Source: a virus | Virus record (IMG/VR): IMGVR_UViG_3300018080_000131 | Span: 1 to 64,000 of that record | Direction: 5' to 3' (one strand) | DNA: 64,000 nt | In this document: positions 1 to 64,000 of the stretch, one piece after another | Layout of the letters: the number at the start of each line of letters is the position of its first letter | How positions within the stretch are numbered: position 1 is the first letter of the stretch | Notes under the pieces: model-generated | Database searches by the model: none | Seen by the model: only the letters and a program-made list of their open reading frames with translations | What the model was told of the DNA's origin: nothing | Position numbers and translations under genes: made by a program

Positions 1-528
1 ACAGAAGCACAAGAAGATGAATTAAGTAGACAAGAGAAGATGTTTGAAAAGTTCTTTGGTGAGAATGGTACTATGGCTGGAATATTTGATAGTTTTGGAA
101 AGAAGCTAGAGAGTATTTTTGGAAACACTTTTGGTAATATTGTTGATAATGCTGAAGGTGTTTTAAAAGCTTCAACAAGGCATATGAATTCTTGGTGGGA
201 GAAAAATCCATTTAGTCCCAGATTTGAAGAAGGTGGGGATGGTGGTGGAGGTGGTGGTACACCAGCACAACATGGTTTTCATGGTACTGTAACTGGACCA
301 AGACAGTTTAACATTGAGCCAGGAAGGACAGAGAGAGTGGATATAAATCCTATTAGACCTGGAAGACCACAAGAAGAAGGTGGTGCATCTCCAGTTGTTG
401 TGGTTCAAGAAAAGAAGATTGAACCTGTATTTATTCCAGTTGAAGAGCTTGGTGGGTTTATGATTAAATTTTTAGAGACAGCTAGTGATGATGAAAGATT
501 TAAAACTAAGAGTAAAAGTTTGAGGTAA
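1..528 (+). CDS. C-terminal part of probable tail tape measure protein (5' truncated by window edge)
   Basis: Frame is open from position 1. Helical segment, then a Gly-rich linker and QHGFHGTVTGP...EPGRTERVDINP resembling the C-terminal motif of many tape measure proteins. Lies directly upstream of tail-tip genes. Confidence 0.6.
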   Translation, partial: TEAQEDELSRQEKMFEKFFGENGTMAGIFDSFGKKLESIFGNTFGNIVDNAEGVLKASTRHMNSWWEKNPFSPRFEEGGDGGGGGGTPAQHGFHGTVTGPRQFNIEPGRTERVDINPIRPGRPQEEGGASPVVVVQEKKIEPVFIPVEELGGFMIKFLETASDDERFKTKSKSLR

Positions 529-534
529 TGAAAA

Positions 535-1641
535 ATGACTAATGCTTCTTTTTTATATAATAATCTTTGGGATGGTTCAGGAACTTTAACTTATTCATCC
601 AAGCATAGTAACTTTCCAGCAACACAAACAAGAAATAGGTGGTTTACTAAAAGTTGGAGAAGTAGATATGGTTCTGGTTCTGGTTGGGGTAGGTTTGTTA
701 TATCTACTGGTGTAAATGATGCTATTGATTTTGATGAAGGTGGTGCAGAAATAAATGCTACTCTTACAGCAGGAACATATACAGCAGATACTTTATGTAC
801 TGAGATTAAAACTCAATTAGATGCTGGTGGTGCTTTAACATATACAGTTGATTATGATGATGCTAATAATAAATTTGTTATTTCTGCTACTGGTAATTTT
901 ACTTTAAGATGGAATACAGGAACTAATAAAACTACAAGTGTTGCTAGTACTATTGGTTATAGTGATTCTGCTGATGATAATGGTGGAGCAGATTCTTTTA
1001 CAGCAGATAATATGAGGATTCATAGTGAAGAATGGTTGAAATTTGATTTTGGTTCAGCTAAAAGTATTACCAGTTTTGCTATAAGGTATCATAATCTTTC
1101 AAGTTCAGCTACTTTAAAACTACAAGGTCATACTGCTGATTCTTGGAGTTCACCAGATGTTGATGAAACTATTTCTATTACTGATGATGTTATTTTTAAG
1201 TTTTTATCATCTGCTCAGAGTAAAAGATGGTGGAGAATTTATATAAATGATGTTGATAATTCAGATGGGTATGTTGAATTAGGTAGGGTGTTTCTTGGTA
1301 CTTATTTTGCTCCTACTGTTAATTGCAGAAGAGATTATAGTGTTGATTGGGTAGACCCATCTACAATTATGTTTTCTGATGGTGGTCAATTGTCTTCAAA
1401 TAAAAAAACAAAATATGGTTATGAAAGTTATGTTTTTGAATATATTACTGATACAGATTTAGCTAATTTTAAAACTATGTGGGATTCTATTGGAATGACA
1501 GAGGATATATTTTTTGTGAGAGATAGGGATAATGCTTCTACAACAGGAATGTATTGTAGGGTTGCTACTCCTATTAGGTATAAACATTTTGTGAGAGAAT
1601 CTTTTTATACTCTTAATATTGATTTAGAGGAACTTAGGTAA
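535..1641 (+). CDS. tail protein (distal-tail-like, with a discoidin/F5-8-like insertion)
   Basis: 368 aa, beta-rich T/S/D/G composition. EEWLKFDFG...ITSFAI...RWWRIYI...ELG resembles a discoidin fold. Position after the tape measure gene. Confidence 0.6.
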   Translation: MTNASFLYNNLWDGSGTLTYSSKHSNFPATQTRNRWFTKSWRSRYGSGSGWGRFVISTGVNDAIDFDEGGAEINATLTAGTYTADTLCTEIKTQLDAGGALTYTVDYDDANNKFVISATGNFTLRWNTGTNKTTSVASTIGYSDSADDNGGADSFTADNMRIHSEEWLKFDFGSAKSITSFAIRYHNLSSSATLKLQGHTADSWSSPDVDETISITDDVIFKFLSSAQSKRWWRIYINDVDNSDGYVELGRVFLGTYFAPTVNCRRDYSVDWVDPSTIMFSDGGQLSSNKKTKYGYESYVFEYITDTDLANFKTMWDSIGMTEDIFFVRDRDNASTTGMYCRVATPIRYKHFVRESFYTLNIDLEELR

Positions 1642-1710
1642 TGCAATTATACTTGTGTGGTGGAGTTTTTGGCTTAGAAGGCTTCTTAGAGGCTTATACA
1701 GGTGTTTTAT
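1641..1710 (-). repeat. dispersed ~70 bp intergenic repeat, copy A
   Basis: Reverse complement ATAAAACACCTGTATAAGCCTCTAAGAAGCCTTCTAAGCCAAAAACT...CAAGTATAATTGCAT aligns to 52075-52146 and 47010-47082. Confidence 0.8.
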
Positions 1711-1722
1711 AAGGATATTTAG

Positions 1723-5566: not shown

Positions 5567-7066
5567 ATGAAAGAATGTGAAACTTGTGAAAGTTGTTATA
5601 CTTGTGAAAAAAGTGTTATTTCAAGTATAACAAAAGAACAATTAGATGAAGCAAAAAAGAAAGGTGGTATTCCTTCTGAATGGTTGAGAGATTTAGATTG
5701 TGAAAACTGTTTTTCTTGTCAGAAGTGTGATACAAGTCAAGAAGTTGACAAATGTGGAAACTGCTATGCTTGTCAGAAGTGTGATACTCACCAAGGAAAT
5801 GCTGGTGATGGGTTAAATAATTGTGAAAATTGTTTCTCTTGTCAGAAGTGTGTTTCTCAGCAAGCTAATTGTGAAAATTGCTATACCTGTCAGGTTGGTG
5901 ATGTTTCTAATGATTCTTGTAAAGGTGGTGTTTGTAAGGTAAAGAAGGATGAGGATTATGTTAATAATATAACCTATTTCTTATTTCCAACAAATAATTG
6001 TAACTTGAGATGTACTTATTGTTATGCTACAAAAACTCCTAAAGAAATGGATGCTGAAACCTTAGCTCAGGCTGGAGAATTTATACTTGGTCCAGAGGAA
6101 GAGAGGAATCCTGGGAGAAGGGTTAATATTCAGTTTTTTGGTGGAGAACCTATGTTGAAATGGAATATGCTAACTACATTTATTGATTGGATGAATGAGG
6201 AAGCAAGAAAAAGATTAGGAAGAAAGATTAATTGGGGTATGACCACAAATGGTACTCTTTTAAATGAAGAAAGAATTAAGTGGATGAAGGAGCATAATTT
6301 AAGACCTTTATTGAGTGTTGATGGTAGAAAGGAAACTCATAATAAGCATAGGATTTATGCTAATGGAAGAGGTTCTTTTGATGATATTCCTTTTGATACT
6401 TTTTTGAAATATTTTCCTAATCCAGAATTAAGACCAACAATTCTTCCTGATACTGTAGAAGGTTGGATTGAAGATTTGTATTGGTTTCATTCTAAGGGAT
6501 GTTATAATGTTGCTACAGAGGTTGCTTATGAGGCTGATTGGGATGATGAGGCTATGGCTAAGGCTTGGAGAACTTATGATAAGATGGGAGATATTTATAT
6601 TCAATTTAGGAAAGCTGGGAAGAAAGATTTTTGGATGAAGTTTATAATGGATGGTTTGAATACTTTAGGTATAGAAAGACAAACAGGAACAGTATGTGGA
6701 ATTGCAAGAAATACTGTAGCCATTGATGCTCATGGTTGGCTTTATGCTTGTCAGAGATATGCTGATTTTAATAATCCTGATTTGAAGATTGGAGATATTT
6801 GGGAAGGTTGGGATTATGACAAGTTGAAGGAATGGAGAAGTTTGAGAAGAGAACATATGTATCCTGACCCAAGAAGTGGTTTTGATTGTGAAACTTGTCC
6901 TGCTAGATGGAAATGCAGAGGTGGTTGTAATGCTATGAATTATCAATGTAATAATGATAGAAAAATGATATTGGAAAATCATTGTAAGTTTCAGAGAATG
7001 TGGGCTTTAATAACATTAAGAGTGTTGTCAGCAACAGGAGAGTTACATAGGAAAATTAGAAGATAA
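5567..7066 (+). CDS. radical SAM/SPASM peptide/protein maturase with Cys-rich N-terminal extension
   Basis: CNLRCTYC rSAM motif, FFGGEP, TTNGTLL, SVDG. SPASM cysteines CGIARN...YACQ...IGDI...CETCPARWKCRGGC...HC. SD GGAG. Confidence 0.95.
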   Translation: MKECETCESCYTCEKSVISSITKEQLDEAKKKGGIPSEWLRDLDCENCFSCQKCDTSQEVDKCGNCYACQKCDTHQGNAGDGLNNCENCFSCQKCVSQQANCENCYTCQVGDVSNDSCKGGVCKVKKDEDYVNNITYFLFPTNNCNLRCTYCYATKTPKEMDAETLAQAGEFILGPEEERNPGRRVNIQFFGGEPMLKWNMLTTFIDWMNEEARKRLGRKINWGMTTNGTLLNEERIKWMKEHNLRPLLSVDGRKETHNKHRIYANGRGSFDDIPFDTFLKYFPNPELRPTILPDTVEGWIEDLYWFHSKGCYNVATEVAYEADWDDEAMAKAWRTYDKMGDIYIQFRKAGKKDFWMKFIMDGLNTLGIERQTGTVCGIARNTVAIDAHGWLYACQRYADFNNPDLKIGDIWEGWDYDKLKEWRSLRREHMYPDPRSGFDCETCPARWKCRGGCNAMNYQCNNDRKMILENHCKFQRMWALITLRVLSATGELHRKIRR

Positions 7067-8463
7067 TGGATTTTATAACTAGTGAAGAGTATGAGAATAC
7101 TGTAAGAAATATTCTCAAAAGACTTGATGGAAAGATTGATAAATCAGGTGGTAGTATATCTGGTGATGTAGATATTACTGGAACATTAAGTATTAAATCT
7201 CAAAATGAATTAAGATTCTATGATAATGGAAATTATGTAGGGTTTGAAGCTCCTGCTTTATCTGGGAATCAGATTTGGGTTCTTCCTGATGCAGATGGAG
7301 GTGCTAATGAGGCTTTAGGCACAGATGGTGGTGGAAATCTGATATGGAGAAACCATGATGAACTTGCTGGGTATGTTGCTGATGAGCATATTGATTGGAC
7401 AAATGCTACTGATAATTTAAGCACAAGTGGAAATATATTTACAACTGGTGGTCATTACTATGCTCCAAATGATGCTAAAATTTATTTTAGAGATGTTGGT
7501 GATACTGGCTACATAAGAGCTTTAAATGTTAATACTAATGACCATACAACATTAAATGCTAGTTCTGGTAAAGATATAATTTTTATGGAGAATGTTAGTG
7601 CTAAGATGAGATTAGTTAGTGGGGATTTTGGAATAGGTACAAATACTCCTGCTACAGTTGCTTCTGCTTCTCTTGGTGGTACAGTTCTTCATGTTTTAGA
7701 TAGTAGTGCTGATGGTAGATTGGTTGCTTCAGGTGCTACAGGAGCTAATTTAAATCTTGTTGATACTGGTGGTGGCTCTAATGATAAATGGTTACAGCTA
7801 GATGTTGATGGTGGTATTGGAAAATTTGCTTCTGTTGCTGATGCTGGTACAAGTTTTGTATCTAATAATATTCTTGTTATGGATTTAGGAAATGGTAATG
7901 TTGGGATAGGTACAAATACTCCAGGTGATGAGCTTGAGGTTAATGGCAATATAATGGCTAATGGGATAGGGTTGGGGAAATCTCCTACTCAGTTAATTGA
8001 TATGCAAGCTGAGAGTGCTTTATGCCCTATTTATATGACAGCTATAACCTCAACTAGCCAATGGCAATCTCCTCAAATTTTAACAAGAAGAGCAAGAGGA
8101 ACTGTTGGCTCTATATCTGCTGTTGCAGATGGAGATTTACTTTATAGGAATGATATATATGCCTATGATGGAAGTGATTATGTCTTAGCTGGTCATATAA
8201 GATGCCAAATGCAAGATGACCCAACAGATGTAGGTAATATTACACCATGTTCTCTTGGTTTTGCTGTTCAAGACTCCTCGGGTAATTTAAGAATAGCTAC
8301 TCAATTTGGTGAGTATTTTTATCTTCAACATGGTGTTCTTGCTATGGCAGAAACTACAACTCCTTCTGCTATTGCAAGAGTTGGAAAATTGTATACAAAG
8401 AGTGATAATAAACTTTATTTCCAGGATGGTGGTGGTACTGAACATGAAATGGCTTATGCATAA
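7066..8463 (+). CDS. tail fibre / receptor-binding-like protein
   Basis: Repeated GNVGIGTNTP/GDFGIGTNTP motifs; WVLPDADG and KLYFQDGGGTE segments typical of fibre proteins. Start overlaps the rSAM stop (TAATG). Confidence 0.75.
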   Translation: MDFITSEEYENTVRNILKRLDGKIDKSGGSISGDVDITGTLSIKSQNELRFYDNGNYVGFEAPALSGNQIWVLPDADGGANEALGTDGGGNLIWRNHDELAGYVADEHIDWTNATDNLSTSGNIFTTGGHYYAPNDAKIYFRDVGDTGYIRALNVNTNDHTTLNASSGKDIIFMENVSAKMRLVSGDFGIGTNTPATVASASLGGTVLHVLDSSADGRLVASGATGANLNLVDTGGGSNDKWLQLDVDGGIGKFASVADAGTSFVSNNILVMDLGNGNVGIGTNTPGDELEVNGNIMANGIGLGKSPTQLIDMQAESALCPIYMTAITSTSQWQSPQILTRRARGTVGSISAVADGDLLYRNDIYAYDGSDYVLAGHIRCQMQDDPTDVGNITPCSLGFAVQDSSGNLRIATQFGEYFYLQHGVLAMAETTTPSAIARVGKLYTKSDNKLYFQDGGGTEHEMAYA

Positions 8464-9811: not shown

Positions 9812-10690
9812 ATGAGAAAAGAAAAAGAAACAAACAAAAAAGGAGAAAGAGAAATGTTAGATGTTTCAAAACTTGGTTCTAAGGAAAGAAAAAAGGTTCT
9901 TCAGGAAAAACTCAATGAGTTAGCTTCTAATCTAATTACAGATGTTGAGAAGCTTAAAGAGTTTGCTAGAAATTGGAGTGCTGGGTTTCATCATTATTCA
10001 TTTTATAATCTTCTTCTCATCTGGTGTCAGAAACCTAAAGCTACTCTTTGTGCTGGTTTCAAACAGTGGATTAAAAAGCACAAAAGGTTTGTAAGAAAAG
10101 GTGAAAAGGCTCTTTGGATTCTTGCTCCTATTTTCAAAAAAGAAAAGAAGGTTGAAGAGATTAAAGATGCTGATGGAAATGTGGTTGAGACAAAAGAGAA
10201 AGAGATTGATAAGCTGGTTGGTTTCACTTCAGTTCCAGTTTTTGATGTTTCACAAACAGAAGGAGAAGCTTTGGATATTGGTGGTAATAATGTAAAGGCA
10301 AATGGTGAGCTTCCTAATGTTGAAGAGATTGGCAAAAAGTTTGGTTTTCCAGTAAGAATCTCTCAGGGTGTTGCTGATGGTTGGACAAATGGTAAAGAGA
10401 TTGTACTTTGTGAAAGAAAAAATAAAGCTCAAATGGTTGCTTGTTTCTTTCATGAATTAGGTCATAATCTTTGTGGTCATCTTAAAGACAGAAAAGATGT
10501 TTCAAGAGAAAGAGCAGAATTAGAAGCTGAAGCTGTTAGTTTTTTGGTTTGCTCCTGCTTGAATATTGAGAATAATAATAGTGCTTCTTATATCTCTTGC
10601 TGGAAAGGTGATAGGGAAAAGATTGAGCAAAGTGCTTATAAGGTTTTAGGTGCTTCTGAAAAAATCTTGAAAAAAGTACTTGACAAATAA
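9812..10690 (+). CDS. ardC: ArdC-like ssDNA-binding/antirestriction protein with HExxH zincin domain (SD-led start probably 9854)
   Basis: YSFYNLLLI...AGFKQW...VRKGEKALWILAP...VFDVSQTEG N-terminal motifs; HELGH and ELEAEAVSFLV...SASYISCW in the C-terminal part. Confidence 0.85.
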   Translation: MRKEKETNKKGEREMLDVSKLGSKERKKVLQEKLNELASNLITDVEKLKEFARNWSAGFHHYSFYNLLLIWCQKPKATLCAGFKQWIKKHKRFVRKGEKALWILAPIFKKEKKVEEIKDADGNVVETKEKEIDKLVGFTSVPVFDVSQTEGEALDIGGNNVKANGELPNVEEIGKKFGFPVRISQGVADGWTNGKEIVLCERKNKAQMVACFFHELGHNLCGHLKDRKDVSRERAELEAEAVSFLVCSCLNIENNNSASYISCWKGDREKIEQSAYKVLGASEKILKKVLDK

Positions 10691-20141: not shown

Positions 20142-20262
20142 AAAATGCATTTTGACTAAGTAGTTATCAAAGTATAGAAAGTGCGACATTGAAAGACTTA
20201 TATATATACTGTAAAGTATATATCTGTATGATTAATATAATAAGAGTATTTATGAGGCATAT
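20132..20262. other. possible replication origin (iteron pair + AT-rich tract)
   Basis: CAAAGTATAGAAARTGC at 20132 and 20168, a third partial AAAGTATA and a TATATATATA tract; sits between the HTH gene and the helicase operon. Confidence 0.4.
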
Positions 20263-22575: not shown

Positions 22576-22791
22576 ATGACTAGAAGATGTAATATGTGTG
22601 ATAATAAAATTGACAAATGTGAAAATTGTGGTGATAAGTTTGGAAAAGAAAATGAACAGATTTTTTGTTATACTGATGATATAGATAATATTGAGAGGCA
22701 TTTCTGTTCAACTAGTTGTTTTGAAAATTGGTTGATAGTTAAGGAAAATGATAATTTATGGGAAGCTATGGTTGTAATTGAAAATGAATAG
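22576..22791 (+). CDS. small Zn-finger protein
   Basis: CNMC, CENC, FCSTSC. Confidence 0.5.
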   Translation: MTRRCNMCDNKIDKCENCGDKFGKENEQIFCYTDDIDNIERHFCSTSCFENWLIVKENDNLWEAMVVIENE

Positions 22792-23488
22792 AAATAGATT
22801 TATAGTAAGTTACCCAAGAAGTGGTAGTACTTGGTTAAGGTATCTTTTAACAAGTATTGTCTATCCAAATGAGGAATTAACAGTGGATAATGTGGATAGA
22901 TTAGCTCCAGATATTCATGAGATGGGAAAATGGAATGAGTTAGGTGTTAAGAATCCATTTATAATTAAGAGCCATTTCAGGGATAATGTTGATTATGAAA
23001 ATTCATATATCATATATCTTTATAGAGATTTTAGAGATGTTGCTGTATCTTATTATTTTTTTAGAGAAGAACAGGAAGATTTTCATGATTATTTAACAAA
23101 TCTTGTTATGAATGGTATGCAGTTTGGTAAATGGGAAAATCATATTGATTATTGGTTGTTTGGTGGTGAGAATCCATATTACTTTTATTCTGTTAGTTAT
23201 GAGAAGCTTTATAATGATACTAGGTTTGAATTAAAAAGTATTGCTAGATTTCTTGGTTTGGATGCTTCAATTGATGTTATTACTGAAGCTATTAAAAGAT
23301 GTAAGTTTGGTAAGATGAGAAGGATTGCTGAAAGAGATGGTTTGAAAGAGAGGTTTCTTGGATATAGAGGAAGACCTGGAAGATGGAAAGAAATGTTTAC
23401 AACAGAAGATTTAGATTATGTTTGGTATAAGTATAAATATTTTTTGAAACATCTTGGTTATGAGGAAGGTAATATTAAAAATGAATAA
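22778..23488 (+). CDS. PAPS-dependent sulfotransferase
   Basis: SYPRSGSTW (5'-PSB loop), KSH, YRDFRDVAVSYY (3'-PB), SYEKL, RGRPGRWK. Confidence 0.9.
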   Translation: MKMNRNRFIVSYPRSGSTWLRYLLTSIVYPNEELTVDNVDRLAPDIHEMGKWNELGVKNPFIIKSHFRDNVDYENSYIIYLYRDFRDVAVSYYFFREEQEDFHDYLTNLVMNGMQFGKWENHIDYWLFGGENPYYFYSVSYEKLYNDTRFELKSIARFLGLDASIDVITEAIKRCKFGKMRRIAERDGLKERFLGYRGRPGRWKEMFTTEDLDYVWYKYKYFLKHLGYEEGNIKNE

Positions 23489-24035
23489 TTTAATAGATAA
23501 TTTATTTAGTGATGATTTGGGAAATGATATTAATAGAATTTTTGAACAGATAGACTCTGTTGAAATGTTAATTGAATTGGAAAAAAAGCATAAAAATTTT
23601 AATTATATTAATGCTTCTATTTTATCATATAAATCTGAAATTTTATCTAGAAGAAGTTTGCCTTTGTGGATATTTACAAACCATGTTAAGGAAGTAATTT
23701 CTAGATTTAAACAAATAATAGGTGATGAGAAAAAAGATGATATTAAAAAATTATTTTTTCCTTTAACAAGAGCAGAATTAGTACTTTGTTTAAGTGATAC
23801 TTCTTTTGTTGCTCCAATTCATTATCCTTATAGTCATTATATGATTGTAATTTTTAACCAGATATGTAAAGAAGAAAGAATGTATAATTGTGTTATTGAG
23901 ATTGATTATAACATTGATAAAAATGAAATTAATAATTTAGAGAGTTTATATTCTTCAAAAATTAATAATATTTGTAATAAAAGAGTAGAGCTAATTTGGA
24001 AAATATTTATGGAGGTTAGAAAAAATAATGACTAA
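23454..24035 (+). CDS. hypothetical protein, very AT-rich
   Basis: Long ORF filling the gap before the polymerase. Confidence 0.55.
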   Translation: MVMRKVILKMNNLIDNLFSDDLGNDINRIFEQIDSVEMLIELEKKHKNFNYINASILSYKSEILSRRSLPLWIFTNHVKEVISRFKQIIGDEKKDDIKKLFFPLTRAELVLCLSDTSFVAPIHYPYSHYMIVIFNQICKEERMYNCVIEIDYNIDKNEINNLESLYSSKINNICNKRVELIWKIFMEVRKNND

Positions 24036-26406
24036 AAAGAAAGATTATTGTGAAACTTGTGCTTTAAACAGGTACAATAGGAATAGGGTTCATTCTCAGG
24101 GAGATTTTAAAACAGCTAAAGTAATATTTGTTGGTGAAGCTCCTGGTAGAAGAGAGGATGAGGAAGGGCTTCCTTTTGTTGGTCAGGCTGGTCAGGTTTT
24201 GAGAGAATGTTTAGAAGAGGTTGGAATAGAAGAGAAAGATGTAGTTTTTTCTAATGTTTGTAGATGTAGACCACCATCAAACAGAAATCCATCTCAGAAG
24301 GAAATGAACAGGTGTATTAAGTATTTGAAGGAAGAGCTTGAAGAGTTTGATGGGTTGATTGTATTGCTTGGTGCTGTTCCTATGAAGGCTTTTTTAAACA
24401 AGAAAGGAGTTTTGAATAATAGAGGTTATGGGTTTATGAAGGATGGTAGGCATTTCTTTGTTACATACCATCCATCTTATGTATTGAGAAATAGAGGTAA
24501 TAAGGAAATAAGAGATGAGTTTGTAGAGGATTTAGGTAAGGTTAGAACATGGATGAATGGAATTGAGTATGTTCCTTTTACAAAGATTGAAAATTGGGAA
24601 GGGCTTGATAAATTTATAGAGAAGGCTAAGAAGGCTAAGTACATTTCATTTGATATTGAGACTAATGGTTTAGACCCATATGCTGAAGGAGCTAAGATTC
24701 TATCAATTGCTTTTTCTTGGGGTAAGGAGAAGGATGAGAATTATTTTATTCCTTTAGCTTATCCAGGTTCACCATTTGAATATAAGGTTGCTGTTCTTTT
24801 AACTAGATTGGAATTTTTGTTTAATGACCAGGATAAGTGTCTTATAGGACAGAATCCAGGTTTTGATATTAAGTGGATAAAAAAACATGCTATGATTGAG
24901 GTTACTAATCTCTGGTTTGATACCAAGTTTGCAAGTTATTTGATAAATGGGAAATGGAAACCACAGAACTTAAAGAGTATGGTTTGGAAGTATCTTGATT
25001 ATGGTGGATATGGAATTGATAGAGATGGTTTAGAGAATGAGGATATAGAAAGACTTGCTAAATATAATGTTATGGATGCTTTTTGTACTCTAGAGCTTGT
25101 GAAGGTGTTTATGGATAAGCTTTCTGATAAGCAGTTTTCTTTAATGACAGAAACAATGAGTGGTGCTATTTCTGCTTTGGCTGAGATGGAAGCTGTTGGG
25201 TTGACAATAGCAAAAGAAGAGCTTGAGGAAATGAGTAATGAATATTATGAGAAGTTAACAGAGTTGGAAGAAAAAATGCACAAGTATCCTAAGATTCAAG
25301 AGTATGAGAGGAAGAATAAGGAGTTGATTAACTTCAATTCAACTAAGCAGTTGGTAAAGGTGTATGATATTCTTGGTATTCATCCAGATAAGAAAACATT
25401 AAAAACAGATGAGTTTTCTACAGATGTAGAAGCTTTGAATCAGGTGAAAGGAAAGCATAAGTTTTTTGATGATTTACTTGAGTATAGGAAGGCTGTAAAG
25501 ATTTATAGTACTTATCTTCATCCATATATGGAAGAGAAGGCTGAGGCTGTTAGAACTTCTTATAATACTACATTTACTGTTACTGGTAGGTTGAGTTCTA
25601 ATAATCCTAATCTTCAGAATATTCCATATGGGGTAAGACCAGTGTTTACAGCTAGTCAGGATTTTCTGGTTGAGATTGATTATAGCCAGTTGGAGCTTAG
25701 GGTTTTGGCTATGTATTCCAAGGATGAGGCTTTAATTGATGCATTTAGAACAGGTAAAGATATTCATGAGGTTACAAGATTTGAGATTTATGGGGATAAT
25801 TCAAAGTTACCAGATGATAAGCAGGTGGAGCAGAGAGTACAGGCTAAAACAGTGAATTTTGGAATTGTGTATGGAATAAGTGAATATGGGTTAGCACACA
25901 GGTTGGAGTTGACAGAAGAGAAAGCTGGGGAAATGATTAAAATTTTCTTGAATAAGTATAAAGGTGTTGCTGAATTTAACAAGAGTGTGAAAAAGTTTGT
26001 AAGGGAAAATGGATATTATGAAACTTTCTTTGGTAGGGTTAGGGAGTTTGATTTTAATAATCCTGCATTGAGAAGGGTTGCTGGTCATTCTAAAAGAAAG
26101 ATGATAGATAGTTTGTATAGAGAAGCTGTTAATTTTCCTATTCAGAGTACAGCTAGGGATTTGGTGTTTGATGCTCAGGGGAGATTATGGAAAGAGATGA
26201 GGAAGAGGGAAATGGATTCAAGAATGATTGCTGATGTTCATGATAGTATCCTGTTTGATGTTAGAGATAAGGAGCTAGAGGAGCTTTTGGTGTTGGCTAA
26301 AGGGGTTATGGAAGATTTTAGTGAGTTTGATTTTGTTAATGTTCCAGTGAAGATTGATATAAAAATTGGTGAGTTTTGGGGTAAATTGGAAGAATTTGAG
26401 ATATGA
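24028..26406 (+). CDS. polA: family A DNA polymerase with N-terminal family-4 uracil-DNA glycosylase domain and 3'-5' exonuclease
   Basis: GEAPG, NVCRCRPPSNRNP, TYHPSYVLR (UDG4); FDIET exo I; TGRLSSNNPNLQNIP, DYSQLELR, AKTVNFGIVYG, VHDS. Confidence 0.95.
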   Translation: MTKKKDYCETCALNRYNRNRVHSQGDFKTAKVIFVGEAPGRREDEEGLPFVGQAGQVLRECLEEVGIEEKDVVFSNVCRCRPPSNRNPSQKEMNRCIKYLKEELEEFDGLIVLLGAVPMKAFLNKKGVLNNRGYGFMKDGRHFFVTYHPSYVLRNRGNKEIRDEFVEDLGKVRTWMNGIEYVPFTKIENWEGLDKFIEKAKKAKYISFDIETNGLDPYAEGAKILSIAFSWGKEKDENYFIPLAYPGSPFEYKVAVLLTRLEFLFNDQDKCLIGQNPGFDIKWIKKHAMIEVTNLWFDTKFASYLINGKWKPQNLKSMVWKYLDYGGYGIDRDGLENEDIERLAKYNVMDAFCTLELVKVFMDKLSDKQFSLMTETMSGAISALAEMEAVGLTIAKEELEEMSNEYYEKLTELEEKMHKYPKIQEYERKNKELINFNSTKQLVKVYDILGIHPDKKTLKTDEFSTDVEALNQVKGKHKFFDDLLEYRKAVKIYSTYLHPYMEEKAEAVRTSYNTTFTVTGRLSSNNPNLQNIPYGVRPVFTASQDFLVEIDYSQLELRVLAMYSKDEALIDAFRTGKDIHEVTRFEIYGDNSKLPDDKQVEQRVQAKTVNFGIVYGISEYGLAHRLELTEEKAGEMIKIFLNKYKGVAEFNKSVKKFVRENGYYETFFGRVREFDFNNPALRRVAGHSKRKMIDSLYREAVNFPIQSTARDLVFDAQGRLWKEMRKREMDSRMIADVHDSILFDVRDKELEELLVLAKGVMEDFSEFDFVNVPVKIDIKIGEFWGKLEEFEI

Positions 26407-27680: not shown

Positions 27681-27690
27681 GGAAAGCAAT

Positions 27691-32428: not shown

Positions 32429-33379
32429 ATGATTAGTAAAGATGCAAAAAAGAAGATGAAGGTGATTGATTTGAAATCCAGGTTTGATAAGCTTGTGAAG
32501 TATAGAGTGAGTACAGGGATAGTTGCTTTTGATAAAGTAATAGGTGGTGGTATTCCTTCTGGTAGATATACAGAGTTCTTTGGTGGTGAGTCTACAGCTA
32601 AGAGCAGGTTGTGTGGTCATATTCTAGCAGAGACACAGAAGATTGGTGGTATAGCAGTTTTGGTTGATACAGAAAAGAGTATGGGAGAAGGGTTGATTGA
32701 GTTAACAGGAATTGATTTAGAGAATTTGATATATCCTGACCCAGAAGAGATAGTTACTATTGAAGATGTTTTTGAGCTTGTTGAGTATGTATCAACAGAA
32801 ATGAGAGAAGAGTTCCCAGATGTTCCTATTACTTTTGTATGGGATTCTTTGGCTTCTTCTCCAGGTATGGAAGATATGGAAAAAGAAATTGGTAGGAATG
32901 AAGCTGGTATGAGAAGAGCTAAGATTATTGGTGAAGGATTGAAAAAGTATATGCCTATGGTTTATAAGAATCAGATATGTCTTATTATTGTAAATCAGGT
33001 TAGAGACAAAATGAATGTGATGTTTGGGGATAAGACAGATGTTCCTGGTGGTAGGCAAGTGAAACATTGGGCTTCATTAAGATTAGGGATGAAGGTAATT
33101 GGCTCAGTTAAGGACAAAGATACTAAAGAGCAGGTATCAACTAAGGTTCAGTTGCTGGTTAGGAAAAGTAGGGTATGTAAACCTTTTGGAATTGTTAACC
33201 TTGATATTCCTGTTGATGAACCTATTAATAAATATAGTGGTTTGTTGGATTATTTAAAGAGGCATGGGGAGATTGATAATAAAGGTAAATATTATTTCTT
33301 TACAGATAATCCAGAAACTACATTTCTGAAAGATGATTTTCCAAAGATTTATGAGGAAAGAAATGGAAGAAAAAAATAA
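32429..33379 (+). CDS. recA: RecA/UvsX-like recombinase
   Basis: VSTG...FD..IGGGIPSGRYTEFFG, VDTE, VWDSLA, VNQVR, PGG...HWASLRL. Confidence 0.92.
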   Translation: MISKDAKKKMKVIDLKSRFDKLVKYRVSTGIVAFDKVIGGGIPSGRYTEFFGGESTAKSRLCGHILAETQKIGGIAVLVDTEKSMGEGLIELTGIDLENLIYPDPEEIVTIEDVFELVEYVSTEMREEFPDVPITFVWDSLASSPGMEDMEKEIGRNEAGMRRAKIIGEGLKKYMPMVYKNQICLIIVNQVRDKMNVMFGDKTDVPGGRQVKHWASLRLGMKVIGSVKDKDTKEQVSTKVQLLVRKSRVCKPFGIVNLDIPVDEPINKYSGLLDYLKRHGEIDNKGKYYFFTDNPETTFLKDDFPKIYEERNGRKK

Positions 33380-47085: not shown

Positions 47086-47360
47086 AGAAATAGAAAGATG
47101 CTTAGGATTGGTCTAATGAAAAGAATAAGTGGTATTGATATTAGTAAATGGGGTATTTGGTTTAATTATCAGTTTTGGATTGACAAAGAAAAAAGAATAA
47201 ATGAGGAAGACGGTTTGCTTTATGTGTGGATATGGAAAAGAAAGAAAAAATATAGAAGATTCAAATACTGTTCTTCTATATCTCAGGGTTTGTTTAAGAG
47301 CTTGAAAGAGGTAAGGGAATTTTGGGTTGATTATAATAAATTTGTAAGATGGTATAAAAC

Positions 47361-48275
47361 ATGAAAACAATAGATGAGATTTTTGAAGGTGTTTGGGTTA
47401 GTGATGGTGAGTTTTTAATTCAGTGTCCTTATTGTAATGACCATCCTACTCATAATCATTGTTATGTGAATATCAAAAAAAGTGTTTTTAATTGTTTTTA
47501 TTGTGGAGAATCAGGAACATTAAAAAAGCTGTTAAAGGATTTTGGTGATGATGAGAAGGTTAAGACGATAAGAAGAAGGCATGGGGTTAAAGAAAGACAA
47601 AAACATAAAGAAATATCAATTGATGAGTTTAATAGATTTAATCCAGTAACAGGAGCTAATGGTACTAATGATTTATTAGCATTGAAATATCTTGAGAATA
47701 GAGGATTAAGACCATTTGAGATTAGGAATTATGATATTAGGTATGCTTCTTCAGGTAAGTATTTTGGAAGGGTGATTATTCCTATTTATGAGGAAGGTGA
47801 TTTGGTTTGTTTTATTGCAAGAAGTTTCTTAGATATGATTGAACCTAAATATTTATTTCCAAAGCATGGAGAAACTAAATTAACTACAAATGAAGCATTA
47901 TTTGGGTATGAGAAATCAAGAGATTATTGGTCAAGCAATCATGTTATTGTAGAAGGTGTTTTTGATGCTATAAAGATAAATCAAACAGATAATTTTAAAG
48001 GTATAGCTATTATGAGCAAGCATTTAAGTGAAGGTCAGAAATATAAGCTGTTGAAGCTGGAAGGAACTTTTTATATAATGCTAGATTCAGATGCTAAGTT
48101 AGATTCTTTGAAGGTTGCTGGAGAATTATCTAAGTATGGAAAAATTGTGAAGGTTGCGTTTATTAAAAGTAAAGACCCAGGAGAAGCTAGTTTGAAGGAA
48201 ATAAGAAAGGCTTTGAGACAAGCTGAGCCTTTTTCTTATGAACTAGAAATGAGAATAAAAATGGAGGATTGGTAA
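47361..48275 (+). CDS. DNA primase (Zn finger + TOPRIM)
   Basis: CPYC..H..CFYC, YLENRG, GRVIIPI, IARS, PKY, VEGVFDA, LDSD, KDPGE. Confidence 0.92.
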   Translation: MKTIDEIFEGVWVSDGEFLIQCPYCNDHPTHNHCYVNIKKSVFNCFYCGESGTLKKLLKDFGDDEKVKTIRRRHGVKERQKHKEISIDEFNRFNPVTGANGTNDLLALKYLENRGLRPFEIRNYDIRYASSGKYFGRVIIPIYEEGDLVCFIARSFLDMIEPKYLFPKHGETKLTTNEALFGYEKSRDYWSSNHVIVEGVFDAIKINQTDNFKGIAIMSKHLSEGQKYKLLKLEGTFYIMLDSDAKLDSLKVAGELSKYGKIVKVAFIKSKDPGEASLKEIRKALRQAEPFSYELEMRIKMEDW

Positions 48276-48286
48276 GGCAGGTAAAA

Positions 48287-48553
48287 ATGCTAAAAATAAC
48301 AGTTGAGATTATTCCTTTTGGAATAAAAGATATGAAGAAAAGGCTTGGCGAGATATATATTACTAATGATGGTACTGGAAATGAAGAAATAGGAAATTAT
48401 AATTATACAATTAAAACTGAAAGAAGACAAGATGAGAAGATTGGTGATGAGTTAAAAGGGAGAGTAGAGAACTTCCAAAGAAGAAAGTGTAATTTTTGGA
48501 AGCTGTTGTATTTGATTTTGAAGGGAGTTTATGATGGGAGAGAAAAAATATAA
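48287..48553 (+). CDS. hypothetical phage protein
   Basis: MLKITVEIIPFG...I.NDGTG...GNY motif. Confidence 0.6.
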   Translation: MLKITVEIIPFGIKDMKKRLGEIYITNDGTGNEEIGNYNYTIKTERRQDEKIGDELKGRVENFQRRKCNFWKLLYLILKGVYDGREKI

Positions 48554-49358
48554 AATTTATTTGATTATAAATAAAATTAATGGAAAAACATATGTTGGAA
48601 TGACTAGTAGGACAGTTAAACAGAGAGTAGAGGGTGGTCATTTTACTAAAAATGCTAATATTCTGTTACAAAGAGCTTTAGATAAATATGGAAAAGATAA
48701 TTTTGAATATGGTACTTTAGAAGTTTGTGGTTGTGAAGAGGATGCTGTTGAAGCTGAAAAATTTTGGATTGCTACTTTTAATAGTATTTCTAATGGATAT
48801 AATATAGATGAAGGTGGTACTTTTCCAAGTGAATCTATGAGGGATAAAAGTAGTGAAGGACTTAGAGAATATTGGAAAAGAGTTACAGGTAAGAAATCAG
48901 TAAAAAGAATAAATATTAAGAAAATAAATGAATTAACACAGAAATATGTTGATACAAAGGATGAAAAAATTTGGGATGATTTAATTTCAGAATTGTATAT
49001 TATTATTGATATTTTACTTGGGAAAAATTATACAAGAATAAAAACTCTTTGGGATGATATGAGACAAGATGTAATAATTAACTTGTGGAAAAATAGAAGA
49101 ACTGTTGGTGATACCTGTTCTCATAGTTTTTATAATCATTATTATAATAGAATTAGAAAGGGGTTAAATAGAGCTATAAAAAAATATGAAGGTGAAAAAT
49201 ATGAAGAAAGTGATTATTTAATTTATAAGGAGAAAAAACAACCTATGTATGATTTTTTAGATATGAATGTTAAGTCTATAGAAGATTTAACTGATGAGGA
49301 AAAATTAGAAGTTGGTTTGGATACTGAAGGAAATATGTCAGAAGATTATGAAGAGTAA
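48531..49358 (+). CDS. GIY-YIG endonuclease domain fused to sigma-region-2-like domain
   Basis: KIYLIINKINGKTYVGMT...R...H...LQRALDKYG..NF...E..WI...GYNI; C-terminal half is paralogous to 13888-14334. Confidence 0.75.
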   Translation: MMGEKKYKIYLIINKINGKTYVGMTSRTVKQRVEGGHFTKNANILLQRALDKYGKDNFEYGTLEVCGCEEDAVEAEKFWIATFNSISNGYNIDEGGTFPSESMRDKSSEGLREYWKRVTGKKSVKRINIKKINELTQKYVDTKDEKIWDDLISELYIIIDILLGKNYTRIKTLWDDMRQDVIINLWKNRRTVGDTCSHSFYNHYYNRIRKGLNRAIKKYEGEKYEESDYLIYKEKKQPMYDFLDMNVKSIEDLTDEEKLEVGLDTEGNMSEDYEE

Positions 49359-55567: not shown

Positions 55568-55653
55568 TAAAATGCTTGTTTATAACAAGTTAAAAGAAAA
55601 AAGAAAAAAATTTCAAAAAAAGACTTGACAAATGATAAAAAATGTTTTATATT
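55568..55653 (+). promoter_or_regulatory. early-type promoter driving the ncRNA operon
   Basis: TAA-N19-TTA 55568-55592; TTGACA 55625; TATATT 55648. Confidence 0.88.
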
Positions 55654-55658
55654 GTGAT

Positions 55659-55695
55659 TGTCTTCAGTTAGAAGATGTAAGTTCTTTAACAATTT
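55659..55695 (+). promoter_or_regulatory. rrn-type antitermination leader (boxB-like hairpin + boxA)
   Basis: Hairpin TGTCTTC-AGTTA-GAAGATG then GTTCTTTAACAATTT; compare E. coli rrn boxA TGCTCTTTAACA. Confidence 0.7.
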
Positions 55696-55700
55696 AATTG

Positions 55701-55957
55701 ATTGTCTCTTCTGAGAGAAGGGAGTTAATCCACAGTTCATCTTGAGCTTGGGAAAAGTTCCTAGAGGATGGAAGATTCAACTAATCTGAGGATAGGTGTT
55801 GAAAACCTAGATGATTCACCTAGTTAGGAGTAGCTAACCTAATGATGATGGTGGTTGGGGTGTCCCCCCTGACAGTTGACCCTAGTTCTCCAAGGGTGTT
55901 CTTGTTACCAAGTGAGCTTAGTTGCAAGAGCTTGGTACTTCTCCCAGAAGAGACAAT
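55701..55957 (+). ncRNA. structured ncRNA module 1
   Basis: 20-bp closing helix (55701-55720 with 55938-55957, one mismatch); several internal hairpins; higher GC than flanks. Confidence 0.75.
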
Positions 55958-55963
55958 AAAATG

Positions 55964-56175
55964 TTTTCCTTCTAATGGGAAGGTCAACTAGACAGAAGAC
56001 TTACTCATTAGTGAAACAGGGAATTGATTAATGCTTTTAAGTAGGCATGGTCAGCATCTGAGTAGAACCATCTGTGGTAAGCAGAAAGACAAAAGGCTCT
56101 GTTGGCTGTCAGTTCTTTGTGAAGTATTAATGCTTCTTGCAGGTGGAATTCCTGCTCTTCCCATTAGAAGGAAAA
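55964..56175 (+). ncRNA. structured ncRNA module 2 (tRNA-like, expanded anticodon arm)
   Basis: Perfect 19-bp closing helix; T arm GCAGG-TGGAATT-CCTGC; variable-arm hairpin GAAGTA-TTAA-TGCTTC. Confidence 0.78.
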
Positions 56176-56191
56176 ATAAAAAATTCTCCTT

Positions 56192-56401
56192 AGAGTTTTT
56201 TCTGGGAGAATAGCTTAAGAAAGCTGTAATGCATTTAATAGGATGCTGGTGAGATGAGATGGTTATACTAGTTGCCATTTTATCTTCTCAATTCCAGCAC
56301 TATGACTATAGCATAGTTAGCATAATAACAGTTTAAAGCTCTGGTTCTTTGAATCAGGTAAATGTTGGTTATGAAATCCAACTTCTCCCAGAAAAAACTT
56401 T
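56192..56401 (+). ncRNA. structured ncRNA module 3 (tRNA-like, ~110 nt D-loop insertion)
   Basis: 19-bp closing helix; GGGAGAA-TA-GCTT...AAGC-T-CTGGT-TCTTTGA-ATCAG...GTTGG-TTATGAAAT-CCAAC-TTCTCCC. Confidence 0.78.
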
Positions 56402-60264: not shown

Positions 60265-60279
60265 TAATTAGGAGATATA

Positions 60280-61830: not shown

Positions 61831-61846
61831 AAAAAATTTTGATGTG

Positions 61847-61942
61847 TAAAGTATTGTATAATAATAACTTAGAAAAAAATTTAAAAAAAATGTTAAAAAA
61901 ACACTTGACAAACAAGAAAAAATGTTGTATATTATAAGTACA
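61847..61942 (+). promoter_or_regulatory. early promoter cassette
   Basis: TAA-N19-TTA 61847-61871; TTGACA 61905; TATATT 61928. Confidence 0.9.
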
Positions 61943-62272: not shown

Positions 62273-62453
62273 AAAGGAGAGATAAAATGGCATTAGGAAG
62301 TAAGAAAAGAGATTATGTAACTTCAGCAAGATTGGTTGAAAAAAGGCTTGCTCTTCATTTTCAGTTTATGAATGAATATATTCAAAATGGAATGGAAAAA
62401 GATGAAGCAAGTAAGAAAGCTTTTAAGGATATTCAAGAAGGAAGGATAAAGTA

Positions 62454-62870: not shown

Positions 62871-62917
62871 AAAAAAGACTTGACAAATAAAATAAAATGT
62901 GTTATATTATAAGTAGA
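62860..62917 (+). promoter_or_regulatory. early promoter
   Basis: TTGACA 62880; TATATT 62903. Confidence 0.88.
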
Positions 62918-63325
62918 ATGAGAAATAAAGGAGTAAAAAAGATGAGTAGAGAAGAAAGTAATAGGCTTGAGAGGCTTATGAGTGGTTTGGAAGAAGTTAC
63001 TGGTCATAGGGCTTCTATGAGTCAGAAGGAGCTTTGGAATCTTGCTCCTAAAGAGGCTAAAAGAACTGTTAGGAAAATGAGAAGACTTGAAAAAAAAGCT
63101 AAAAGGCTTCCTAGTAGGAGTTCTCATCCTGAGCTTCAGAGTGTTACTGTTCCTAGATTGGCTGATGGTCTTATGAGATTGGTTGGTAATACTCTTAGGG
63201 TTGGAAATAAAGTTCTTGTTGGTGGAGAACCTGCTAGACAGCTTCATAAACATGGTGCTATGATGGAAAGTGATTATCAGAATTATAAAGCTAAAGATTC
63301 TAAAAATAAATCAAGGCATTTGTAA
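62918..63325 (+). CDS. basic hypothetical early protein (SD-led start 62942)
   Basis: Follows promoter. Confidence 0.65.
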   Translation: MRNKGVKKMSREESNRLERLMSGLEEVTGHRASMSQKELWNLAPKEAKRTVRKMRRLEKKAKRLPSRSSHPELQSVTVPRLADGLMRLVGNTLRVGNKVLVGGEPARQLHKHGAMMESDYQNYKAKDSKNKSRHL

Positions 63326-63343
63326 AAATGTGAGGTGATATGA

Positions 63344-63562
63344 ATGAGTAAATATAATGTTAGGGTTTTAAGTTTTCTATATGATATTAATAAGCTTGAT
63401 TCAGATATTGCTGGGTATCCTCATTATTTTACTGTAGAAGCAAAATCCAAAAAAGAAGCAGAAGAGAAAATGAGAAAGAAAATGGTTAAAAGATATGGAG
63501 AAAACTATTTTAAAATAACTGATGTTGAATTATATGATAAAGATTTTGCTTCTTATGATTAA
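63344..63562 (+). CDS. hypothetical phage protein
   Basis: SD GAGGTG; VEAKSKKEAEEK motif. Confidence 0.6.
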   Translation: MSKYNVRVLSFLYDINKLDSDIAGYPHYFTVEAKSKKEAEEKMRKKMVKRYGENYFKITDVELYDKDFASYD

Positions 63563-63573
63563 AGGAGAATAAA

Positions 63574-64000
63574 ATGAGTGAGCTTCTAGAAAAATTCAAG
63601 AGTCTTTTAAAGAAAAGAGAAGGAATTGTACATGAAAGAAGCAAGCTTTATAAGTTGAAGTTTGATATGAGAGATGCAGATTATCAAGAGAGATATGATA
63701 AAACTAAGTTCCAGCTAAGAAAGTTTGATGATAGAGAGAGAAAGATTAACAAGCTTCTTGATGGTCTTGCTAAAGAGCTTCCTGTTCAGGTTAGTAAGAA
63801 TTGGAAGAAGTATGATTCAGTTTGGGAGTCAACATATTCTTCTCAAGGGTTTGGTTCTTATAAGTATGCTAAGGAAAGAGCAGAAAAAATAGCTGATGAT
63901 ATTAAAGTGAATGGTGTTCCAGTGAAGATAGAGATTGAAACAAAGAAGTTTGAAGGTTCTGGTTCTATATTTAGTAGTAGAAATTCTCATTCAACATTTA
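63574..64000 (+). CDS. hypothetical protein, runs off the window
   Basis: SD GGAG, ATG 63574, frame open to the window end. Confidence 0.6.
   Translation, partial: MSELLEKFKSLLKKREGIVHERSKLYKLKFDMRDADYQERYDKTKFQLRKFDDRERKINKLLDGLAKELPVQVSKNWKKYDSVWESTYSSQGFGSYKYAKERAEKIADDIKVNGVPVKIEIETKKFEGSGSIFSSRNSHSTF

What the first reader, a model, noticed from the sequence alone, without database searches (positions are those of the whole stretch)
1..64000. Near-total absence of the CG dinucleotide
Seen: reading by eye I found only six CG in 64 kb (8279, 20184, 47211, 47566, 48157, 48349; I may have missed a few). GC, CC and GG are common, Arg is encoded by AGA/AGG, and even tRNA-like T loops lack TTCG. 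This is far beyond normal restriction-site avoidance. Inference: a host CpG-specific methylase/nuclease or CG-directed defence, or a phage base modification incompatible with CG.
Basis: partly seen in the sequence, partly recalled or inferred. Interest (0 to 1): 0.78.

Follow-up and report, generated by a model that had tools for sequence, protein, structure and literature searches.

The report
Phage genome almost without CG
This 101-kb genome of an uncultured phage keeps only 7 of about 2,070 expected CG steps. Selection removed them along with a dozen restriction-type DNA words, and related phages made the same purge at least three times, so some unidentified activity, probably a bacterial defence, reads the two-letter word CG in DNA.

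Summary
The window has six CG, at the six positions listed, against about 1,308 expected (odds ratio 0.005). The whole 101,074-bp IMG/VR phage contig has seven against about 2,070 (0.003).

It is not an artefact or plain mutational decay:
- All 1,546 Arg codons are AGA/AGG.
- NCG codons, C|G codon junctions and non-coding DNA are equally empty.
- GATC, GGCC, GCWGC, GTSAC, GGNNCC and several 6-mers are also absent.
- Avoiding GCWGC removes the Ala-Ala dipeptide (0 against 60 expected).

The closest relative (92 kb) has normal CG (0.79). On capsid and RecA trees, near-total CG loss arose at least three times among related uncultured phages, always together with loss of GATC and GCWGC. Across 134 related sequences the trait is bimodal (≤0.05 or ≥0.17).

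No DNA methyltransferase, base-modification gene or integrase was found. An ArdC-like anti-restriction gene is present.

Best reading: selection by host DNA-targeting defences, including one that reads CG itself.

This scan has already noted CG-purged phages on other DNA (crAss-like, rumen, Bacillus, cyanophage). I confirmed crAss001 at 0.031. This case is the most extreme, and it has normal sister phages.

The parts
1..64000 (.). CG-purged phage DNA (part of a 101,074-bp contig; all genes on the + strand; 31.5% GC; G 22%, C 9%)
   Evidence: 6 CG against about 1,308 expected in the window and 7 against about 2,070 in the contig. GATC, GGCC, GCWGC, GTSAC and GGNNCC are all zero.
8279..8280 (.). 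Residual CG (TCG codon in ORF 7066-8463). A residual GTGGC lies 507 bp upstream at 7772.
20184..20185 (.). Residual CG, intergenic, 21 bp from a residual GTTATC (20163)
47098..48553 (+). Patch holding 4 of the 7 residual CGs (47211, 47566, 48157, 48349). It spans three ORFs: 47098-47364, primase-like 47361-48275 and 48269-48553. Probably a recent import that has not yet been purged.
   Evidence: The chance of 4 of 7 falling within 1,139 bp is P = 2e-4 by simulation. There is a weak DNAG_N match.
48531..49358 (+). GIY-YIG (homing-type) endonuclease gene directly after the CG-bearing patch
   Evidence: PF01541, E 2.1e-11
9812..10690 (+). ArdC-like anti-restriction protein (ArdC N-terminal domain plus a weak zincin peptidase match)
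   Evidence: PF08401, E 1.2e-9
32429..33379 (+). Bacterial-type RecA, used as the second marker for the tree of relatives
24028..26406 (+). Family A DNA polymerase. It shows this is an autonomous phage replicon with intact long genes.

Best explanation
CG has been removed from this virulent phage's DNA by natural selection acting on double-stranded DNA words. The process is the same one that removed GATC, GGCC, GCWGC, GTSAC, GGNNCC and several 6-mers. A genome without a word cannot be cut at it, or methylated at it and then cut, by the defences of the bacteria it infects.

All 16 NCGN contexts are empty and the trait is all-or-none among relatives. I therefore infer that one of those defences reads the dinucleotide CG itself. 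It could be a restriction-modification pair built on an M.SssI/M.MpeI-type CG methylase. It could also be a methyl-CG-dependent (Type IV) nuclease acting on phage DNA that was CG-methylated in a previous host.

Shown: the purge, its selective nature, its convergence, and its link to restriction-type words.
Inferred: that the agent is a host defence, and that a single CG reader exists.

The confidence of 0.6 is for selection on DNA words by host defences. For the single CG-level reader in particular I would give about 0.4.
For: 1. Selection, not decay.
- 0 of 1,546 Arg codons are CGN.
- C|G junctions number 3 against about 480 expected, and non-coding CG 1 against 217.
- In the closest relative, G001, 42% of Arg codons are CGN. 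At 151 conserved Arg positions where G001 has CGN, this phage has AGA or AGG.

2. Same class as restriction words.
- GATC 0 against 196, GGCC 0 against 18, GCWGC 0 against 53, GTSAC 0 against 29 and GGNNCC 0 against 45, each absent in both orientations.
- Avoiding GCWGC costs protein sequence: Ala-Ala 0 against 60 expected here, 82 in G001.

3. Derived and convergent.
- Sisters on the capsid tree have 0.6-0.94.
- On the RecA tree the purged sequences sit at three separate supported places, each beside sisters at 0.23-0.65.

4. Bimodal.
- Of 134 non-redundant sequences, 5 are at or below 0.05, none lie between 0.05 and 0.175, and the rest are spread broadly.
- Partly depleted relatives lose specific contexts (TCGA, GCGC, CCGG, GCGA) and keep others. 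The purged ones lose every context.

5. All 5 purged sequences also lack GATC and have at most one GCWGC, against 3 of 129 others (Fisher 1.7e-7, not corrected for phylogeny).

6. Residual CGs cluster, and residual copies of other forbidden words lie near them (P about 5e-4 and 1e-3). Patches imported from unadapted phages would look like this.

7. The phage shows no methylase or modification genes and no integrase, and it has an ArdC-like anti-restriction gene.

8. Precedent: in Mycoplasma hyorhinis SK76 two CG-specific methylases each sit beside a putative endonuclease, alongside a GATC 5mC / Sau3AI-type pair (PMC13736764).
Against: - No host is known, so no cognate system can be shown.
- No restriction enzyme with a 2-bp site has been characterised (my knowledge). 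The Mycoplasma End1/End2 proteins are untested and unexpressed.
- With only 7 CGs left, uniformity across contexts cannot rule out many overlapping 4-6-bp specificities.
- The other purged relatives are short contigs (6-9 kb), so their independence and gene content are only partly known.
- The contig is rated 65% complete by CheckV, so a methylase or modification gene could lie in a missing part.
Confidence: 0.6

Rival explanations
1. There is no CG-specific reader. The purge is the summed effect of many ordinary Type II systems whose 4-6-bp sites contain CG (TCGA, GCGC, CCGG, ACGT, CGCG, AciI-type CCGC and others), met across a diverse host population.
For: Relatives with intermediate values show exactly this context-specific pattern. 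In L006, CCGG is 0 against 29, GCGC 0 against 29 and TCGA 4 against 89. In L014, TCGA is 4 against 137 and GCGC 2 against 64, while CCGG is kept. This phage avoids at least a dozen other words, so it has met many systems.
Against: All ten strand-symmetric NCGN classes are at least 98.9% depleted, including non-palindromic ones such as ACGA/TCGT (2 against 1,178 expected). No sequence lies between 0.05 and 0.175 among 134, whereas an additive process should give a continuum.
Confidence: 0.17
2. The phage itself makes a CG-cutting nuclease to shred host DNA and is immune because it has no CG.
For: It would explain why each CG is so costly. The phage carries several nucleases and unknown genes: PDDEXK_15 at 38190-38759, GIY-YIG at 48531-49358, and SbcCD.
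Against: No gene is shared only by purged lineages in the stretches available. The listed nucleases have homologues in CG-normal relatives. Seven CGs are tolerated. The co-purge of GATC and GCWGC would need further phage nucleases.
Confidence: 0.06
3. Mutational decay: CG methylation by a host M.SssI-like enzyme followed by 5mC deamination, or a CG-directed deaminase, as in vertebrates and Mycoplasma penetrans.
For: TG and CA are raised (1.16 and 1.12) relative to the CG-normal sister (0.97 and 0.84).
Against: CGN Arg codons cannot decay by transitions without changing the amino acid, yet none of 1,546 remain, and 151 conserved positions are AGR. Where the sister has NCG, this phage has NCT (86) more often than NCA (54). 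Words without CG are purged just as completely, and protein sequence is sacrificed. An odds ratio of 0.003 would need loss about 300 times faster than gain.
Confidence: 0.05
4. CRISPR PAM avoidance: a host CRISPR type uses CG as its PAM, and a genome without PAMs cannot be targeted.
For: CG is the one dinucleotide that can be removed without any amino-acid change. PAM depletion in phages has been examined (PMC4246573, listed).
Against: Losing one of about 2,000 PAMs gives almost no benefit, unlike losing a restriction site. The co-purged words are palindromes of the restriction type. No CG PAM is known to me.
Confidence: 0.03
5. A phage base modification or DNA-physical constraint (thermophily, bendability, packaging) makes CG steps unfavourable.
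For: CpG depletion is associated with thermophily in bacteria (PMC11282364). The coding strand is strongly purine-loaded (skew +0.42).
Against: No modification genes were found. Sister phages of the same group have normal CG. The thermophile effect is moderate and would not explain the loss of GATC and GCWGC.
Confidence: 0.04
6. Artefact of sequencing or assembly, such as converted DNA.
For: One strand is very poor in C.
Against: Long intact ORFs have strong family matches. Conserved Arg is kept as AGR rather than turned into Cys, Trp or stop. The same state occurs in independent contigs from other metagenomes (L079, L086, L147, L161) and in cultured crAss001.
Confidence: 0.01

Closest known systems
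Restriction-site avoidance in non-temperate dsDNA phages (Rusinov et al. 2018, PMC6286503; review PMC12707154)
   Same: Short self-complementary words are eliminated completely from a virulent dsDNA phage. Classic cases (GATC, GGCC, GCWGC) occur in the same genome. No integrase was found.
   Different: The described cases concern 4-6-bp Type II sites. Here the eliminated word has 2 bp, costing about 2,070 sites, and no cognate enzyme of that specificity is known.
CG-purged cultured phage crAss001 (MH675552) and other CG-purged phages noted earlier in this scan
   Same: Near-total CG loss together with zero GATC in a roughly 100-kb virulent phage. I measured 0.031 over 50 kb of crAss001.
   Different: The lineage is unrelated (T4-like capsid, family A polymerase; environmental). 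The purge is ten times deeper. The residual CGs of crAss001 are concentrated in TCGA and CCGG, and those here are not. I found no paper describing the trait.
CG-specific prokaryotic methylases M.SssI / M.MpeI, and the Mhy1-End1 and Mhy2-End2 loci of Mycoplasma hyorhinis (PMC5944983; PMC13736764)
   Same: These are prokaryotic enzymes that read exactly CG. In M. hyorhinis they sit beside putative endonucleases and coexist with a GATC 5mC / Sau3AI-type system, the same pair of words missing here.
   Different: No such gene is in the phage. The endonuclease partners are untested and not expressed in SK76. The host here uses TGA as stop (43 stop codons) and has a cell wall (a phage SLT domain), so it is not a code-4 mycoplasma.
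CpG decay by methylation and deamination (vertebrates; Mycoplasma penetrans, cited in PMC11282364)
   Same: CG is low and TG/CA are raised.
   Different: The depletion is far deeper, and it includes CGN Arg codons and words without CG.

Membership tests
Restriction-site avoidance (phage anti-restriction by loss of sites) | A short, usually palindromic, word is far below its compositional expectation in both orientations | tested here: met
   CG 7 against about 2,070. GATC 0 against 196, GGCC 0 against 18, GCWGC 0 against 53, GTSAC 0 against 29 and GGNNCC 0 against 45.
Restriction-site avoidance (phage anti-restriction by loss of sites) | The avoided word is the recognition site of a system present in the host | not testable with these tools
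Restriction-site avoidance (phage anti-restriction by loss of sites) | dsDNA, non-temperate phage (where avoidance is strongest) | tested here: met
   No integrase or resolvase. The phage has its own polymerase, helicases, RecA and RNR. The contig is rated 65% complete.
Methylation-driven CpG decay | A CG-specific methylase acts on the genome | tested here: inconclusive
   None is encoded by the phage. A host enzyme cannot be examined.
Methylation-driven CpG decay | Loss proceeds by transitions only, so CG persists where transitions change the protein (CGN Arg) | tested here: not met
   0 CGN among 1,546 Arg codons. At 151 conserved Arg positions the sister has CGN and this phage has AGR.
Base-modified phage DNA (hmC, hmU, 5mC, 7-deazaguanine) | Genes for the modification pathway (ThyA-like hydroxymethylase/methylase, TGT/DpdA, DNA methylase, glucosyltransferase acting on DNA) | tested here: not met
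   PF00303, PF01702, PF00145, PF01555 and PF02086 are all absent. Nothing was found among the unknown ORFs. The actual DNA chemistry is not testable here.
Thermophile-associated CpG depletion (Forni et al. 2024) | Moderate depletion shared by organisms of a lineage or habitat | tested here: not met
   Sister phages are at 0.6-0.94, and the trait is all-or-none.

The most novel reading that the evidence does not exclude
Bacteria of anoxic sediments, and probably other habitats, carry a still undescribed defence that recognises the bare dinucleotide CG in incoming DNA. It would be either a restriction-modification system with a 2-bp site or a nuclease that reads (methyl-)CG density. It would be strong and common enough to have driven several unrelated phage lineages to delete every CG.
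Probability: 0.35. Interest if true: 0.85.

Novelty: new variant of a known kind. Interest (0 to 1): 0.66.

Why it matters
If one activity reads CG, it would have the shortest recognition word known for a prokaryotic defence. It would also be a bacterial counterpart of the CG-based self/non-self discrimination of vertebrates (TLR9, ZAP).

This phage group is a clean comparative system. At least three independent purges each have CG-normal sister phages, and all purged lineages share the same three missing words (CG, GATC, GCWGC). That signature can be used to look for the host and its defence genes in the same metagenomes.

The relatives here come from environmental metagenomes, and two sit in MAGs labelled Thorarchaeota and Aminicenantes. 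Animal CpG sensing is therefore an unlikely general cause of CG-poor phages. Practically, CG-free DNA may be a simple way to get DNA into refractory bacteria.

Tried and rejected

Relatives and host:
- megablast of 20 kb against cultured phages gave no match.
- Polymerase and capsid proteins match cultured phages at no more than 30% identity, so no cultured relative or host is known.
- A single-protein scan of IMG/VR with the polymerase found nothing. Alignment-based scans did work.
- RecA homologues are all unnamed metagenomic phage proteins and give no host clue.

Search for a responsible phage gene:
- No methylase, ThyA-like or TGT family in the contig, and none of the methylase families in five relatives.
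- PADLOC and NCBIfam found nothing useful in ten unknown proteins each.
- No gene is shared only by purged lineages. The one exclusive hit is a sliding-clamp-like protein in L161 and is most likely a sampling effect.
- A ParB-like gene plus a weak radical-SAM gene after the polymerase (26478-28683) is unique to this phage and absent from the other purged loci, so I rejected it as the cause.

Donor of the CG-bearing patches: the capsid gene shows no locally higher identity to any relative.

Literature: I found no paper describing near-total CG loss in a phage. PMC3538198 (M.MpeI) is not held. The habitat of IMG samples 3300017971 and 3300017963 could not be confirmed from PMC7449369.
Full report
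**What the sequence is.** The window is the first 64 kb of a 101,074-bp IMG/VR virus contig, classed as linear and rated 65% complete by CheckV. All credible genes lie on the + strand.

They encode:
- a family A DNA polymerase, DnaB-type and other helicases, SbcCD, a 5'-3' exonuclease, a bacterial-type RecA, a sigma-70-like factor and ribonucleotide reductase;
- a radical SAM/SPASM enzyme and an SLT lysozyme;
- a T4-type (Gp23-like) major capsid protein, a portal and a prohead protease;
- a large sugar-modification cluster.

No integrase or resolvase was found. Purine-rich Shine-Dalgarno-like motifs precede about 40% of starts. TGA is used as a stop codon 43 times. The host is therefore a bacterium with the standard code and a cell wall.

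Cultured phages match at 30% protein identity or less, and nothing matches at the DNA level.

**The observation.** It is exact. The window has six CG at the six listed positions against about 1,308 expected, an odds ratio of 0.005. The contig has seven against about 2,070, or 0.003. GC, CC and GG are not depleted.

The loss is the same in every compartment:
- No CGN among 1,546 Arg codons.
- Three NCG codons in total.
- Three C|G codon junctions, although C ends 4.5-6.7% of codons before A, C or T, which predicts about 480.
- One CG in 10.7 kb of non-coding DNA against 217 expected.

The single tRNA gene has a TTCAA T-loop.

For scale:
- Staphylococcus phage K, a GATC-free phage of the same GC content, is at 0.53.
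- 133 non-redundant loci of related phages have a median near 0.8.
- A survey of 7,011 phage genomes reports 89 to 28,417 CpG per genome.

**Not an artefact, not simple decay.** The genes are long and match their families strongly. I compared 43 protein pairs with the closest relative for which a long record exists, G001 (92 kb, odds ratio 0.79, 221 GATC).
- G001 uses CGN for 42% of its Arg codons.
- At 151 conserved Arg positions where G001 has CGN, this phage has AGA or AGG.
- Where G001 has NCG, this phage has NCT (86), NCA (54) or NCC (6).
- Where G001 has a C|G junction between conserved residues, this phage has T|G (66) or A|G (6).

Deamination of methyl-CG turns CGN into Cys, Trp, stop, His or Gln codons, so it cannot clear Arg codons silently. 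Their complete absence requires selection for the synonymous C-to-A route.

TG and CA are raised (1.16 and 1.12, against 0.97 and 0.84 in G001). That is expected whichever force removes CG.

**CG is one of a set of forbidden words.** With Markov expectations and both orientations pooled, these are absent or nearly so:

| Word | Observed | Expected |
|---|---|---|
| GATC | 0 | 196 |
| GGCC | 0 | 18 |
| GCWGC | 0 | 53 |
| GTSAC | 0 | 29 |
| GGNNCC | 0 | 45 |
| CAGCTC/GAGCTG | 0 | 36 |
| GATATC | 0 | 18 |
| GATTAC/GTAATC | 1 | 39 |
| GATAAC/GTTATC | 2 | 36 |

Others behave the same way. These are double-strand, restriction-type words.

Selection on them overrides protein sequence. Ala-Ala must contain GCNGC, and it occurs 0 times against 60 expected. 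G001 has 82, and at aligned positions this phage has AG, AS, SA, GA and so on. Asp-Gln and Asp-His, which invite GATC, are five-fold low.

The phage also carries an ArdC-like anti-restriction gene. It has no DNA methylase, hydroxymethylase or TGT/DpdA gene. Its way of dealing with restriction therefore appears to be having no sites.

**Relatives.** Alignment-based scans with the capsid protein and with RecA gave about 190 loci from IMG/VR, JGI metagenomes and GTDB genomes. After removing redundancy, 134 sequences remain.
- Five have an odds ratio of 0.05 or less: this phage, L079 (identical capsid protein to L012), L086, L147 and L161.
- None lies between 0.05 and 0.175.
- The rest form one broad distribution.

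On the capsid tree this phage sits in a supported clade whose other members are at 0.60-0.94. L012/L079 and L086 sit in a different supported clade (quick IQ-TREE, SH-aLRT).

On the RecA tree the purged sequences occupy three separate supported positions. This phage is beside L131 (0.65). L161 is beside L159 (0.55). L147 is with L133, L142 and L162 (0.23-0.42) (FastTree). The purge therefore arose at least three times.

All five purged sequences also have no GATC and at most one GCWGC, against 3 of 129 others (Fisher 1.7e-7, not corrected for relatedness).

Partly depleted relatives lose particular contexts (TCGA, GCGC, CCGG, GCGA/TCGC) and keep others (CCGG and ACGG in L014). That is the usual footprint of individual Type II enzymes. 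In the purged ones every context is empty.

No methylase was found in five relatives' records. No gene is confined to purged lineages in the stretches available.

**Residual words.** Four of the seven CGs lie within 1,139 bp (47211-48349), just upstream of a GIY-YIG endonuclease gene (P = 2e-4).

The few surviving copies of other forbidden words lie beside surviving CGs:
- GTGGC at 7772 with the CG at 8279.
- GTTATC at 20163 with the CG at 20184.
- CCTNAGG, ACTGGG and GAGACC at 79615-80286 with the CG at 80037, inside the capsid gene.

Eleven pairs lie within 700 bp (P about 5e-4). Five of 13 non-CG words lie within 700 bp of a CG (P about 1e-3).

The simplest reading is that these are patches recently imported from phages not adapted to the same constraints, and that CG and the restriction-type words are purged by one and the same kind of pressure. 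No donor is among the sampled relatives, so this is an inference.

**Mechanism.** I commit to selection by host DNA-targeting defences (0.6). Within that, I favour the existence of an activity that reads CG itself (about 0.4), on three grounds:
- All contexts are equally empty.
- The trait is all-or-none.
- Losing restriction targets pays site by site, which can drive a count to zero.

Two concrete forms are possible:
- A restriction-modification pair built on an M.SssI/M.MpeI-type CG methylase.
- A methyl-dependent nuclease acting on phage DNA that picked up 5mC at CG, GATC and GCWGC in a previous host.

The literature gives one partial precedent. In Mycoplasma hyorhinis SK76 two CG-specific methylases each lie beside a putative endonuclease, and a GATC 5mC methylase lies beside a Sau3AI-type enzyme. 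The CG pairs were not expressed, and cleavage was not tested (PMC13736764).

The main rival is the sum of many ordinary CG-containing sites (0.17). Lesser rivals, listed with their evidence in the Rival explanations section, are:
- a phage nuclease with self-immunity by absence of CG;
- mutational decay;
- PAM avoidance;
- base modification or DNA physics;
- artefact.

**Comparison and novelty.** The kind is known: restriction-site avoidance in virulent dsDNA phages (PMC6286503; PMC12707154). The variant is not described in any paper I could find: a 2-bp word removed 99.7%.

This scan has noted CG-purged phages before on other DNA, including crAss-like, rumen jumbo, Bacillus and cyanophage cases. 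I checked one claim myself: crAss001 is at 0.031 with zero GATC.

The present case adds four things:
- the deepest purge so far;
- convergence within one phage group that has normal sisters;
- the fixed CG + GATC + GCWGC signature;
- the co-clustering of residual words.

**Limits.** The host and the CG reader are unidentified. The other purged lineages are known only from contigs of 6-9 kb. Trees are quick or approximate.

Noticed in passing
whole contig (window 1-64000 and L001, L002): The Ala-Ala dipeptide is absent from the proteome (0 against 60 expected; the sister phage has 82), because GCNGC is forbidden. Asp-Gln (9 against 48) and Asp-His (6 against 31) are low because of GATC avoidance. 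DNA-word avoidance visibly reshapes the proteins.
   Followed up: yes
window 47098-49358: Four of the seven CGs sit in three small ORFs, including a primase-like gene, directly upstream of a GIY-YIG homing-type endonuclease. This looks like a recently imported, not yet purged segment.
   Followed up: partly
contig 79615-80286 (L001 17615-18286), inside the capsid gene: One CG plus three otherwise near-absent words (CCTNAGG, ACTGGG, GAGACC) lie within 670 bp. No donor was detected among relatives.
   Followed up: partly
window 48346-48353 and contig 80034-80041: Two of the seven residual CGs lie in the same 8-mer, GGCGAGAT (codons GGC GAG). This could be chance (roughly P 0.01-0.02) or a functional site.
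   Followed up: no
whole contig: The coding strand is extremely poor in C: C 9.1% against G 22.4%, skew +0.42, and C ends only about 3% of codons. Relatives show +0.2 to +0.3 and the purged ones +0.32 to +0.42. Silent CG removal in a one-strand genome takes away C more often than G, but this explains only part of the effect.
   Followed up: partly
window 9812-10690: ArdC-like anti-restriction protein (ArdC N-terminal domain, weak zincin peptidase), a family better known from conjugative plasmids.
   Followed up: no
window 26478-28683: A 400-aa ParB-like protein and a 330-aa weak radical-SAM protein lie directly after the DNA polymerase. No counterpart was found in any related locus, and the function is unknown.
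   Followed up: partly
window 22778-23488 and L002 9702-11978: A sulfotransferase and nucleotide-sugar epimerases are conserved across this phage group (up to 70% identity in L017 and L007). They are part of a large glycan cluster between the capsid and neck genes.
   Followed up: no
window 55568-56401: The ORF-free 'stable RNA operon' noted by other readers has no Rfam match at gathering thresholds and no tRNA by ARAGORN. It is CG-free like the rest.
   Followed up: partly
whole contig: GGAGG is strongly under-represented (23 against 107 expected), and 6 of the 23 copies lie just upstream of starts. This looks like avoidance of internal Shine-Dalgarno-like sites.
   Followed up: partly
L129 (crAss001, MH675552 1-50000): The 44 residual CGs of crAss001 are concentrated in the palindromes TCGA (12 sites) and CCGG (8 sites), with none in ACGT or GCGC. 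That pattern is unlike this phage.
   Followed up: no
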